A stretch of DNA of 64,000 nucleotides from a virus, in the IMG/VR virus record IMGVR_UViG_3300008117_000025, positions 1 to 64,000 of that record. The stretch is one strand, 5' to 3'. The translations under genes were made by a program, and so were the position numbers. Position 1 is the stretch's first letter. Each line of letters begins with the position of its first letter. The notes beneath the pieces are model-generated. The model was not told the DNA's origin. It saw only the letters and a program-made list of their open reading frames with translations, and ran no database searches. Below, piece by piece: positions 15,541 through 16,863 of the stretch.

Positions 15541-15574
15541 TTAAAAAATAAGGGGCAACCTTGCGGTCGCCCCT
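15541..15574 (-). terminator. Intrinsic terminator, GCAA tetraloop
   Basis: AGGGGCGACC-GCAA-GGTTGCCCCT followed by TATTTTTT. Confidence 0.85.
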
Positions 15575-15866
15575 GTAAATTGATGGGAATAACGATTACC
15601 CATAACCCCTGAACGGACCCCTTTTCACCCACTATCCACAAAGATGATCAGTCGATGTGTTGAGATAGGCTGGATTGTCTACCAGCGACGCCTGCGGAGA
15701 TCGTCATTGAATTTCTTCGGCGTATCCAGAGCACTGTTGGGTTGCGCATTCTACCCTTAGTGATGGTGGTTTTATCTCATCCGTCTGTAGTACCCAGCTC
15801 AATAGCTTTTCAGCTATATCACCAGTGCCTTAGCCCCTCTCAAGAGCTTATTCGGCCACAGTTTGT
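15575..15866 (-). ncRNA. Unidentified ~290-nt structured RNA candidate
   Basis: GC-rich, no credible ORF, TATATTTA box at 15872-15879, terminator downstream, several helices (see findings). Confidence 0.65.
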
Positions 15867-15886
15867 ATATATAAATATATTAAATT

Positions 15887-16285
15887 TGGTGGAGATGGTG
15901 GGATTCGAACCCACGTCTTACTAAGTACCTATAATACTAGCGTTTCACATGCTTAGATCTGAACAAGTCTGATCAGTAGGGCTGACCGTTATGGTCGTTT
16001 CCACCACCCTATTTTATGACTATAGGGAAAACTACGGCTCGCAATATGCGTCCGGATGCCGTCTCTATAGCGTACGACTCGCTGTTGTGTTCTGTTCCTA
16101 GGCTCTCTACCGCCCGATGCGGACTAGGCTGCTAAAGCGTAATCGGCGCCTACGAAAGACATCAAGTCTTCGAAGGTCATAGTTGACATTTCGTCAGTTA
16201 TTGTTTTGTAGCTTTTTAAGACGACACTACCGAACGTCTGCATGTAGTACTATCGATCGCAAAGCAATCAATACCAAACATCCCC
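15887..16285 (-). ncRNA. ssrA: tmRNA
   Basis: Acceptor GGGGAUG/CAUCUCC with G3:U70, encoded ACCA end, T-arm GTGGGTTCGAATCCCAC, tag ORF 16195-16124 DEMSTMTFEDLMSFVGADYALAA*. Confidence 0.95.
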
Positions 16286-16717: not shown

Positions 16718-16863
16718 AAGAGTGGGTCTATTCCCCACAGTCAGAAGAACTTGAAACTTACCTACGCACCAGTGAGGTATTCTTCGTGGTTGTTCACAGA
16801 GCTTGTTCAGCGTGCACCATTCCAAGTTGTCGTGCGTGTCAATTAAGACGTACTGTGTTCAGG

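What the first reader, a model, noticed from the sequence alone, without database searches (positions are those of the whole stretch)
15575..15866. Unrecognised ~290-nt structured RNA with its own promoter and terminator, directly downstream of tmRNA
This GC-rich island in AT-rich DNA has a TATATTTA box 8 nt after the tmRNA CCA and a GCAA-loop terminator at 15541-15574. The only minus-strand ORF I found is an implausible 33-aa one. Helices visible by eye: ATAGCT-GAAA-AGCTAT, long-range GCACTG/CAGTGC closing a multiloop, GGGT/ACCC, GACG/CGTC, GCTGG/CCAGC (alternative CTGGAT/ATCCAG), CTATC/GATAG and a terminal ATGGG(T)AAT/ATTCCCAT. GACGGAT/GTCCGTT is a possible pseudoknot. It lacks the signatures I know for RNase P (GAGGAAAGUCC), SRP, 6S and group I/II introns. 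It is the best candidate in the window for a novel large ncRNA or ribozyme.
Basis: partly seen in the sequence, partly recalled or inferred. Interest (0 to 1): 0.8.

Follow-up and report, generated by a model that had tools for sequence, protein, structure and literature searches.

The report
Enlarged manA-like RNA beside phage tmRNA
Just after its tmRNA gene, this uncultured 183-kb aquatic phage carries a real, conserved gene for a folded RNA of about 290 bases; it is an enlarged, uncatalogued relative of the manA RNA (reported in 2026 to build RNA-only cages), and it behaves as a gene of its own, not as a switch for a neighbouring gene.

Summary
The flagged stretch (minus strand, 15866-15581, terminator 15574-15551) is a genuine structured RNA gene. 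I found 46 full-length homologues, all in phage or aquatic metagenome contigs (69-89% identity), none in 50,697 GenBank phage records; a scan of 185,579 prokaryote genomes for its most conserved motif gave only chance hits. A 75-pair model has 98.8% of cells paired (30-44% in slid controls) and 34 pairs with compensatory changes (3-9 in controls). No reading frame is conserved.

It is not wholly new. Rfam's manA model (RF01745) matches every homologue tested end to end, but below threshold (19-30 bits; cut-off 55.2). The shared modules are a GUGRCYGAAUAA hairpin, a GAAA hairpin, a GACG/CGUC helix and a 3' hairpin with an 11-nt loop. One manA junction is reduced, and another domain has grown to about 185 nt.

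36 of 43 loci have a same-strand tmRNA. Some copies lie 0-20 nt from tmRNA or tRNA genes; others have their own promoter box and terminator.

Two loops covary with one 7-nt strand. These are the loop partners that hold manA cages together, so self-assembly is my leading, unproven mechanism.

This scan reached the same reading on other genomes (e1-5689198, e1-5689210).

The parts
15871..15879 (-). Promoter-like box TATATTTAT, 8 nt after the tmRNA CCA. The transcript probably starts a few nt downstream, within UAUAUACAAAC.
   Evidence: All 8 copies of this 9-mer in the window lie on the coding (minus) strand in intergenic gaps. The same box precedes the RNA in many homologues whatever lies upstream, and recurs after their terminators in front of the next gene. 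No transcript data.
15581..15866 (-). Core of the structured RNA (286 nt). It matches my model R1 at 317.5 bits and is the only copy in the 182,846-bp genome.
15827..15859 (-). manA-type 5' module. It comprises GUG, helix GCC/GGC, internal loop GAAUA/AA, and hairpin AGCUC/GGGCU with the 7-nt loop UUGAGAG (15843-15837).
   Evidence: Pairs 15/44, 17/42, 24/38, 26/36 and 27/35 all show double compensatory changes. The module aligns to manA consensus GUGaCUGAAUAA...UAAgGugA.
15794..15825 (-). Hairpin with outer stem CUGGU/GCUGG, internal loop GAU/UGA, inner stem AUAGCU/AGCUAU and a GAAA tetraloop. It corresponds to the GNRA hairpin of manA; the two flanking manA hairpins are absent.
15779..15785 (-). 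5' strand (GACGGAU) of the long-range helix that closes the 3' domain. Its partner is 15618-15612 (GUCCGUU).
   Evidence: Columns 90/280 and 91/279 show 18 and 17 double changes and no broken pair, with at least 5-6 independent changes on the tree.
15632..15770 (-). Expanded inner domain of five helices: ACC/GGU; a variable hairpin at 15766-15726 that exists in two types; ACGCC/GGCGU at 15723-15688; GCUGG/CCAGC at 15686-15669; and CUAUC/GAUAG at 15668-15632, which encloses a hairpin whose loop CUGAUCA (15651-15645) holds the 6-nt palindrome UGAUCA.
   Evidence: The palindrome is kept in 38 of 43 sequences while its flanking base varies.
15697..15703 (-). Hub strand CGAU|CUC in the large loop of helix ACGCC/GGCGU. 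CUC pairs with GAG of the UUGAGAG loop (15841-15839). CGAU pairs with AUCG of the 3' hairpin loop (15596-15593).
   Evidence: Columns 30/178 read G-C 37 and A-U 6. Columns 172/303 read U-A 37 and C-G 6. There are no intermediates, and at least 4 and 5 changes on the tree. Covariation cannot tell whether these pairs form within one molecule or between copies.
15612..15629 (-). Invariant GGUGAAAAGGGG followed by the 3' strand of the long-range helix. This is the most conserved stretch of the family.
   Evidence: the motif recovered 38 further homologues
15583..15603 (-). 3' hairpin AUGGG/CCCAU with the 11-nt loop UAAUCGUUAUU. It corresponds to the last hairpin of manA (GugGG-UAuacAguAAU-CCcaC).
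15543..15574 (-). Intrinsic terminator: 10-bp stem, GCAA loop and U-run.
   Evidence: Most homologues that are not followed by a tRNA have an unrelated hairpin plus U-run at the same place.
15887..16285 (-). Phage tmRNA, the usual upstream neighbour of this RNA.

Best explanation
This is a stand-alone, stable, non-coding RNA gene of a group of uncultured aquatic T4-like phages. It is a structurally enlarged relative of the manA RNA.

Shown: a conserved fold of about 18 helices with abundant compensatory change; no coding potential; phage-only distribution; residence in the tmRNA/tRNA cluster on the same strand.

Inferred (expression): in this phage it is transcribed from its own TATATTTA-type box and ended by its own terminator. 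In relatives where it lies 0-20 nt from a tmRNA or tRNA, it is cut out of a tRNA-type precursor by the enzymes that trim tRNA ends.

Inferred (mechanism): the loop of the 5' module and the loop of the 3' hairpin both pair with adjacent halves of one 7-nt strand, YGAU|CUC. By my reading of the loop numbering in the 2026 manA cryo-EM preprint, the corresponding manA contacts (L3-L8' and L8-L9') are made between molecules and build pentamers that close into cages. The most likely mode of action is therefore self-assembly into a defined homo-oligomer, an RNA-only particle that acts in trans during infection. Its cargo or target is unknown. The genomic company (tmRNA, tRNAs) points to the translation apparatus.
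For: Homologues: 46 full-length copies from viral and metagenome contigs.

Structure: 98.8% of cells are paired, against 30-44% when partners are slid. 34 pairs have double changes, against 3-9. The covariation score is 0.334 against at most 0.098, and 0 of 500 shuffles reach it. RNAalifold independently gives 32 compensatory pairs.

Non-coding: there are stops in all six frames in every homologue.

Relation to manA: the manA model hits end to end at 19.9 bits here and at 19-29.7 bits in 11 homologues. It is the only non-tRNA, non-tmRNA family that recurs; the best E-value is 4.7e-6. My model R1 finds the true manA RNA of P-SSM2 end to end at E 0.0016 with the same module correspondences.

Stand-alone gene: 36 of 43 loci have a tmRNA on the same strand. 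The RNA lies 0-6 nt after the tmRNA in 4 loci, 3 nt after tRNA-Glu in one locus, and 12-19 nt before tRNA-Met or tRNA-Thr in several. Downstream protein genes fall into 10 unrelated groups, and in many loci a TATATTTAT box follows the terminator.

Loop contacts.

Cage formation by manA through kissing loops: bioRxiv 10.64898/2026.07.01.735769.
Against:
- The manA match is far below Rfam's cut-off. One manA domain is reduced and another replaced, so the kinship rests on modules.
- Each loop contact rests on a single covarying column pair with 4-5 inferred events. That is too few for significance on its own, and covariation cannot separate contacts within a molecule from contacts between molecules.
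- My mapping of the preprint's L3, L8 and L9 onto Rfam's manA helices is my own count, made without the figures.
- The cage result is in vitro, from a preprint, and for shorter RNAs.
- The outer closing helix is weak (A/U-rich, 3-5 bp) in this window's copy.
Confidence: 0.6

Rival explanations
1. It is a monomeric trans-acting RNA: a protein-binding scaffold or sponge, or a ligand-binding RNA. Both loop contacts are then intramolecular pseudoknots that lock the 5' module and the 3' hairpin onto the inner domain.
For: Covariation fits intramolecular pairing equally well. The two contacts are contiguous on one strand and could stack into a single 7-bp helix within a compact fold. The invariant purine-rich stretch GGUGAAAAGGGG looks like a binding or tertiary-contact surface.
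Against: By my mapping, in the nearest known relatives the equivalent loop partners are used between molecules. A conserved 6-nt palindromic loop, UGAUCA, is easier to explain by self-association. No partner protein gene travels with the RNA.
Confidence: 0.22
2. It is a cis-regulatory leader or riboswitch, the role originally proposed for manA. In this reading it controls the downstream gene through the terminator at 15574-15551.
For: manA was proposed as a riboswitch candidate lying in 5' UTRs (PMC2864571). In P-SSM2 it ends 16 nt before purL. Here a terminator and then an ORF follow the RNA.
Against: - The next gene differs: there are 10 unrelated groups.
- In at least 7 loci the next gene is a tRNA 12-19 nt away.
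- In many loci a promoter-like box follows the terminator before the next gene.
- The closest relatives of this phage have the same downstream gene with no RNA in front of it (L004).
- The terminator stems are unrelated in sequence and do not overlap the conserved fold, so no antiterminator alternative is apparent.
Confidence: 0.08
3. It is a self-processing or RNA-processing ribozyme that releases or matures the adjacent tmRNA or tRNAs.
For: It directly abuts tmRNA (0-6 nt) or tRNAs in several loci. It has a complex fold with invariant junction nucleotides.
Against: There is no match to any ribozyme family at E up to 10. Many copies, including this one, have their own promoter box or sit about 355-1330 nt from the tmRNA behind inserted genes. 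Seven loci have no tmRNA nearby.
Confidence: 0.05
4. It is a selfish or decaying insert, such as an intron or a homing-element remnant, with no function for the phage.
For: The slot between tmRNA and the next gene is a hot spot. Relatives carry an HNH gene, a GIY-YIG gene or nothing there.
Against: The structure is maintained by compensatory changes across 43 distinct sequences, with long invariant stretches. The RNA is not inside any gene, and the group I and group II intron models give nothing.
Confidence: 0.03

Closest known systems
manA RNA motif (Rfam RF01745; Weinberg et al. 2010, PMC2864571; cryo-EM preprint Ren et al. 2026, bioRxiv 10.64898/2026.07.01.735769)
   Same: - It is carried by phages of the T4-like kind; the PolB of this phage is nearest to those of cyanophages.
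- Its overall plan is an outer helix enclosing a series of domains.
- The 5' module is near-identical: GUG-RCY-GAAUAA-hairpin-UAAGGYAC.
- It has a GNRA-capped hairpin.
- A GACG/CGUC helix is followed, after a short linker, by a 5-bp hairpin with an 11-nt loop of the form UA..CAGUA.U.
- The loops of the 5' module and of the last hairpin pair with a strand inside the GACG/CGUC domain.
   Different: - It scores 19.9 bits, against a cut-off of 55.2.
- It is about 290 nt long, against about 190-215 nt.
- The four-way junction of manA is reduced to one hairpin, so two hairpins and the L5-L7 contact are missing.
- The small hairpin inside the GACG/CGUC helix is replaced by a five-helix domain of about 185 nt.
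- It sits in tmRNA/tRNA clusters with its own terminator, not in a 5' UTR.
- It comes from freshwater and groundwater metagenomes rather than marine cyanophages.
ROOL and GOLLD RNAs (Rfam; Kretsch et al. 2025, PMC12286853)
   Same: They are phage and prophage RNAs of unknown function, 'often near tRNA islands', with ornate folds. They form RNA-only homo-oligomeric cages through a few loop contacts.
   Different: There is no sequence or model similarity (no Rfam match). They are two to three times longer and have different architectures.
Group I introns
   Same: The stretch UUCACAGAC resembles the classical R element, and there is a long-range helix.
   Different: The order of elements does not fit. 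There are no flanking exons and no Rfam match at E up to 10. The resemblance is a 9-mer recalled from memory, and I reject it.

Membership tests
manA RNA (RF01745) | Reaches the family's curated gathering score (55.2 bits) | tested here: not met
   19.9 bits in the window and 19.0-29.7 bits in 11 homologues. A true manA RNA (P-SSM2) scores 181.6 bits.
manA RNA (RF01745) | 5' module: GUG, a short helix, a GAAUAA-type internal loop opposite UAAG, and a hairpin | tested here: met
   Aligned column by column in both directions. The helices are backed by compensatory changes.
manA RNA (RF01745) | Four-way junction domain with three hairpins, the middle one capped by GNRA | tested here: not met
   Only the outer stem and the GAAA hairpin are present. 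An internal loop (GAG/UGA in the consensus) stands where the other two hairpins would be.
manA RNA (RF01745) | GACG/CGUC helix enclosing one small hairpin | tested here: inconclusive
   The helix is present and covaries strongly. It encloses a five-helix domain of about 185 nt instead of one hairpin.
manA RNA (RF01745) | 3' hairpin with a 5-bp stem and an 11-nt loop UAuacAguAAU | tested here: met
   The window has AUGGG-UAAUCGUUAUU-CCCAU; the family consensus loop is UAAUCAGUAUU, with 8 of 11 loop positions identical to manA and the same length.
manA RNA (RF01745) | Outer helix joining the 5' and 3' ends | tested here: inconclusive
   The helix is 8 bp (AAUAACUG/CAGUUAUU) in the L018 group, and matching variants occur in L028, L032 and L052. 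In the window only a 3-5-bp A/U pairing is possible.
manA RNA (RF01745) | Position in the 5' UTR of a protein gene (annotated as cis-regulatory) | tested here: not met
manA RNA (RF01745) | Assembly into closed homo-oligomers through kissing loops | not testable with these tools
   Only covariation of the corresponding loop partners could be shown.
Group I intron (RF00028) and RNase P RNA (RF00010, RF00011) | A match to the family model, plus conserved core elements in the canonical order | tested here: not met
   Neither family matches at E up to 10 in a 601-nt search with permissive filters.
ROOL / GOLLD | A match to the family model | tested here: not met
   No match. Only the genomic context is shared.

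The most novel reading that the evidence does not exclude
The RNA assembles in infected cells into a closed RNA-only particle that is made together with the phage tmRNA and tRNAs, and that acts on the translation or ribosome-rescue machinery, for example by enclosing, concentrating or shielding tmRNA, tRNAs or ribosomal parts. The manA superfamily would then be a third class of phage RNA cage tied to tRNA islands, beside ROOL and GOLLD. The 'riboswitch candidate' label of manA would be wrong for at least this branch.
Probability: 0.2. Interest if true: 0.85.

Novelty: new variant of a known kind. Interest (0 to 1): 0.6.

Why it matters
manA has been listed for 16 years as a riboswitch candidate of unknown ligand. 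A 2026 preprint shows that it builds RNA-only cages in vitro, without giving a biological context.

This branch supplies one. It is a free-standing gene, transcribed or processed with tmRNA and tRNAs, which is the same neighbourhood as the cage-forming ROOL and GOLLD RNAs. That argues that cage-type phage RNAs share a link to the tRNA/translation cluster.

It also gives experimenters a larger natural variant, with an alignment of 43 distinct sequences and two covariation-defined contacts. With these one can test whether the contacts form between molecules.

The family is also missing from Rfam, so it is currently left unannotated in phage genomes.

Tried and rejected
- blastn of the RNA against 50,697 GenBank phage records gave no match.
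- The close relatives found through the downstream ORF (L002-L005) and through the tmRNA 3' end (L006-L015) lack the RNA at this slot. This at first suggested a unique insert. Exact 19-22-mers then recovered the family.
- A genome-contig scan with the core motif gave only chance hits in GC-rich bacteria.
- The MFE fold of the single sequence pairs the 5' module with the 3' region. Covariation contradicts this.
- Group I intron idea: UUCACAGAC resembles the R element and GAAAAGGGGUC resembles Tetrahymena P4-P5, both recalled from memory. I rejected it on element order, context and the lack of an Rfam match.
- RNase P idea: GGGUGAAA resembles J11/12. I rejected it because there was no model match.
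- The permuted-tmRNA hit (22 bits) is merely the tmRNA T-arm plus a chance GGGUGAAA.
- The second weak manA hit in this genome (110742-110879, 11.6 bits) lies inside a 760-aa ORF and is chance.
- Model R1 with default filters did not find P-SSM2 manA. It did only with filters off.
- An alternative partner for the 3' loop (UCAGU with ACUGA of the palindromic loop, by analogy with manA CUGUA/UACAG) is not supported by the variants.
- RNAduplex between the RNA and tmRNA gave meaningless whole-length duplexes and was abandoned.
- Microcystis phage Mel-JY01, the nearest isolate by PolB, has neither manA nor this RNA.

Full report
**What is there.** The window is the first 64 kb of a complete 182,846-bp IMG/VR phage record with terminal repeats. 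The phage has a T4-type PolB, GroEL and sugar-pathway genes. The nearest cultured relatives by PolB are Microcystis phage Mel-JY01 (36% identity) and T4-like cyanophages (30%).

All genes around the finding run on the minus strand. In order they are tRNA-Leu (16717-16631), a small ORF, tmRNA (16285-15887), the flagged GC-rich stretch, and a 187-aa secreted-type ORF (15523-14960). GC rises to 0.44-0.50 over the stretch, against about 0.30 around it. The TATATTTA box (15878-15871) lies 8 nt after the tmRNA CCA. A 10-bp hairpin with a GCAA loop and a U-run (15574-15543) closes the unit. TATATTTAT occurs eight times in the window, always on the coding strand and between genes, so it is a credible promoter element of this phage. 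No transcript data could be obtained.

**Is it more than chance?** The single sequence folds only slightly better than shuffles (z = -1.75), so the case must be comparative.

The closest relatives, found through the downstream ORF or the tmRNA 3' end, do not have the RNA at this slot. One has nothing there, one an HNH gene, and one a GIY-YIG gene plus a tRNA. The slot is therefore a hot spot.

Exact 19-22-mers from the RNA, and then degenerate patterns from the first alignment, recovered the family. There are 12 viral contigs and 38 metagenome contigs, giving 46 full-length copies and 43 distinct sequences at 69-89% identity to the window. The core-motif scan of 185,579 prokaryote genomes gave only chance hits. 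blastn against 50,697 GenBank phage records gave nothing.

Every reading frame on both strands carries stop codons in every copy.

**Structure.** RNAalifold on the 43 sequences predicts 70 pairs, 32 of them with compensatory double changes. My model has 75 pairs in 18 helices, including two non-nested contacts. It gives the following:
- 98.8% of cells are paired, against 30-44% when the 3' partners are slid by 1-3 columns.
- 34 pairs have changes on both sides, against 3-9 in the slid controls.
- The covariation score is 0.334, against at most 0.098.
- 0 of 500 shuffles reach the observed values.

Read 5' to 3' in window coordinates, the anatomy is:
- an A-rich leader;
- GUG (15859-15857), paired with UAC (15789-15787), which closes a three-way junction;
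- the 5' module (helix GCC/GGC, internal loop GAAUA/AA, hairpin AGCUC/GGGCU with loop UUGAGAG);
- a hairpin with an internal loop and a GAAA tetraloop (15825-15794);
- the long-range helix GACGGAU/GUCCGUU (15785-15779 with 15618-15612). Two of its pairs swap GA/UC for AG/CU in 17-18 sequences with no intermediates, and there are at least 5-6 independent events on a tree built without those columns;
- inside that helix, ACC/GGU and four further arms. One arm is a variable hairpin that exists in two unrelated versions. Another arm ends in the loop CUGAUCA, which holds the palindrome UGAUCA;
- the invariant GGUGAAAAGGGG;
- a last hairpin, AUGGG/CCCAU, with an 11-nt loop;
- a U-rich tail that can pair with the A-rich leader. 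This pairing is clear in some relatives (8 bp, AAUAACUG/CAGUUAUU) and weak here.

Four do not hold; the observation check lists them.

**Two tertiary contacts.** A scan for covarying column pairs found two clean cases outside the nested fold.

The first is column 30 in the UUGAGAG loop with column 178 (G-C in 37 sequences, A-U in 6). The second is column 172 with column 303 in the last hairpin's loop (U-A in 37, C-G in 6).

With their invariant neighbours these give GAG/CUC (15841-15839 with 15699-15697) and CGAU/AUCG (15703-15700 with 15596-15593). The two loops therefore dock side by side on one 7-nt strand, YGAU|CUC, in the large loop of helix ACGCC/GGCGU.

On the tree these pairs changed at least 4 and 5 times, always together. 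Each alone is too thin for a significance test, and I mark both as probable rather than proven.

**What it is related to.** Rfam 15 has no match at threshold. With permissive settings, the only recurrent family besides tRNA and tmRNA is manA (RF01745). It scores 19.9 bits here and 19.0-29.7 bits in 11 homologues, always from model position 1 to 192. The best E-value is 4.7e-6, in a 331-nt search against all 4,227 families.

I fetched a true manA RNA from Prochlorococcus phage P-SSM2 (181.6 bits; it lies between regA and purL-hsp20-purM). My own model R1 (289 positions, 68 pairs) finds it only with filters off, at 7.2 bits and E 0.0016, again end to end and with the same correspondences.

The shared parts are specific:
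- GUG-RCY-GAAUAA-hairpin-UAAGGYAC. One homologue has GUGACUGAAUAAAC, letter for letter the manA consensus.
- The GNRA hairpin.
- The GACG/CGUC helix.
- The last hairpin with its 11-nt loop, with 8 of 11 loop positions identical.

The differences are equally clear. The four-way junction of manA is reduced to one hairpin, and the small hairpin inside GACG/CGUC has become a five-helix domain of about 185 nt. I therefore file it as a new variant related to manA, not as a member. The membership table shows which defining features fail.

**Gene of its own, not a leader.** By nhmmer with the window's tmRNA, 36 of 43 loci with enough flank have a tmRNA on the same strand.
- In 33 loci the tmRNA is upstream. 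It is 0-92 nt away in 20 loci. It is about 352-364 nt away in 9, where a 96-aa ORF has been inserted. It is about 665 nt away in 2, behind a GIY-YIG gene.
- In 3 loci the tmRNA is downstream.

In L026, L035, L071 and L066 the RNA begins 0-6 nt after the tmRNA. In L055 it lies 3 nt after tRNA-Glu and 18 nt before tRNA-Met. In L018, L043 and L076 a tRNA-Met follows after 18-19 nt, and in L039 a tRNA-Thr follows after 12 nt.

Such spacing is that of tRNA operons. It implies release by tRNA end-processing enzymes (inference from established knowledge of RNase P and RNase Z).

Elsewhere the RNA carries the promoter box and an unrelated terminator hairpin, and in many loci a further TATATTTAT box follows the terminator before the next gene. 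The next protein genes fall into 10 unrelated groups. The largest group is a lipoprotein-like ORF. These facts argue against the cis-regulatory role proposed for manA in 2010 (PMC2864571), at least for this branch.

**How it most likely works.** A July 2026 preprint (10.64898/2026.07.01.735769) reports cryo-EM structures in which manA RNAs form octamers, decamers and a 60-mer icosahedral shell. These are built from pentamers held by intermolecular kissing loops (L5-L7', L8-L9', L3-L8') and a GNRA-receptor contact (L6-P6').

I counted the helices of the Rfam consensus. The only GNRA loop is the sixth, which matches the preprint's L6. On that count, L3 is the loop of the 5' module, L8 the loop inside the GACG/CGUC domain, and L9 the last hairpin's loop. 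In the consensus, L8 (CUGUA) and L9 (UACAG) are complementary.

The two covarying contacts found here join the same partners: the L3 equivalent and the L9 equivalent, each with a strand in the P8-equivalent domain. By analogy they may be contacts between copies, and the conserved UGAUCA palindrome could be a further symmetric contact.

I therefore commit to self-assembly into a defined homo-oligomer as the leading mechanism. I put the whole statement (real stand-alone manA-related RNA that oligomerises) at about 0.6, and the oligomer step alone near 0.45.

The loop numbering is my inference, made without seeing the figures. The preprint is in vitro work on shorter RNAs. Covariation cannot tell cis from trans.

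The target is unknown. ROOL and GOLLD, the other phage RNA cages, are likewise 'often near tRNA islands' (PMC12286853). This makes the translation apparatus the obvious place to look. The phage has no SmpB gene, so its tmRNA must use the host's.

**Earlier notes of this scan.** Two follow-up reports on other genomes (e1-5689198, e1-5689210) describe the same family and reach the same reading. Several first-reader notes flag longer forms with a 5' hairpin extension. I reached the manA link from then on, before looking these up, and I tested each claim here.

**Verdict.** This is a real, conserved, ornate phage RNA gene. It is a new variant of a known but functionally unexplained kind. Its role is unknown, and self-assembly is the best-supported hypothesis.

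Noticed in passing
L018:1728-1868 (+): A second, smaller manA-like RNA of about 140 nt lies between tRNA-Met and tRNA-Leu, just downstream of the large RNA. It scores 23.5 bits against manA, has an outer helix CCAGAG/CUCUGG and a GUGGCGGAAUAAAC module, and has a hairpin GAAGG-UAACCAAC-CCUUC that resembles helix GCUGG-UAGUCAAN-CCAGC of the large RNA.
   Followed up: partly
window 15886-15552, compared with L004:3975-4000, L002:3421-3972, L005:3203-3907, L017:11036-11326 and L018:710-1351: The gap after the tmRNA is a hot spot for insertions. Relatives carry nothing there, or an HNH endonuclease gene, a GIY-YIG endonuclease gene (twice, independently), or a 96-aa secreted-type ORF.
   Followed up: partly
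L021:2676-2720, and likewise L024, L025 and L027 (upstream of the RNA): Some homologues have a 5' extension hairpin, ACUUAGC...GCUAAGU, enclosing CCUGG-UUCACUGUC-CCAGG. Its CACAGUU is complementary to AACUGUG at the start of the core. This could be a pseudoknot or an alternative fold, and it may be the counterpart of manA's first hairpin.
   Followed up: no
window 16718-16863 (-): A spacer of about 146 nt with about 49% GC lies between the tRNA-like element at 17020-16864 (not called by ARAGORN) and tRNA-Leu. It has no Rfam match at E up to 1 and no ORF, and it may be another structured RNA.
   Followed up: partly
whole genome G000: The phage encodes a tmRNA with a 23-residue tag but no SmpB (Pfam PF01668 absent, while the control rings in 10 of 14 genomes). 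Its tmRNA must therefore rely on the host's SmpB.
   Followed up: partly
L026:2600-2612: In this relative the tmRNA 3' end reads CUA instead of CCA, and the large RNA starts almost at once. The CCA would therefore have to be added after cleavage.
   Followed up: no
window 4402, 9980, 13593, 15871, 19981, 34753, 40495, 60100 (all minus strand): All eight copies of TATATTTAT lie on the coding strand in intergenic gaps. This fits a phage promoter element resembling the Bacteroidota -7 box TAnnTTTG.
   Followed up: partly
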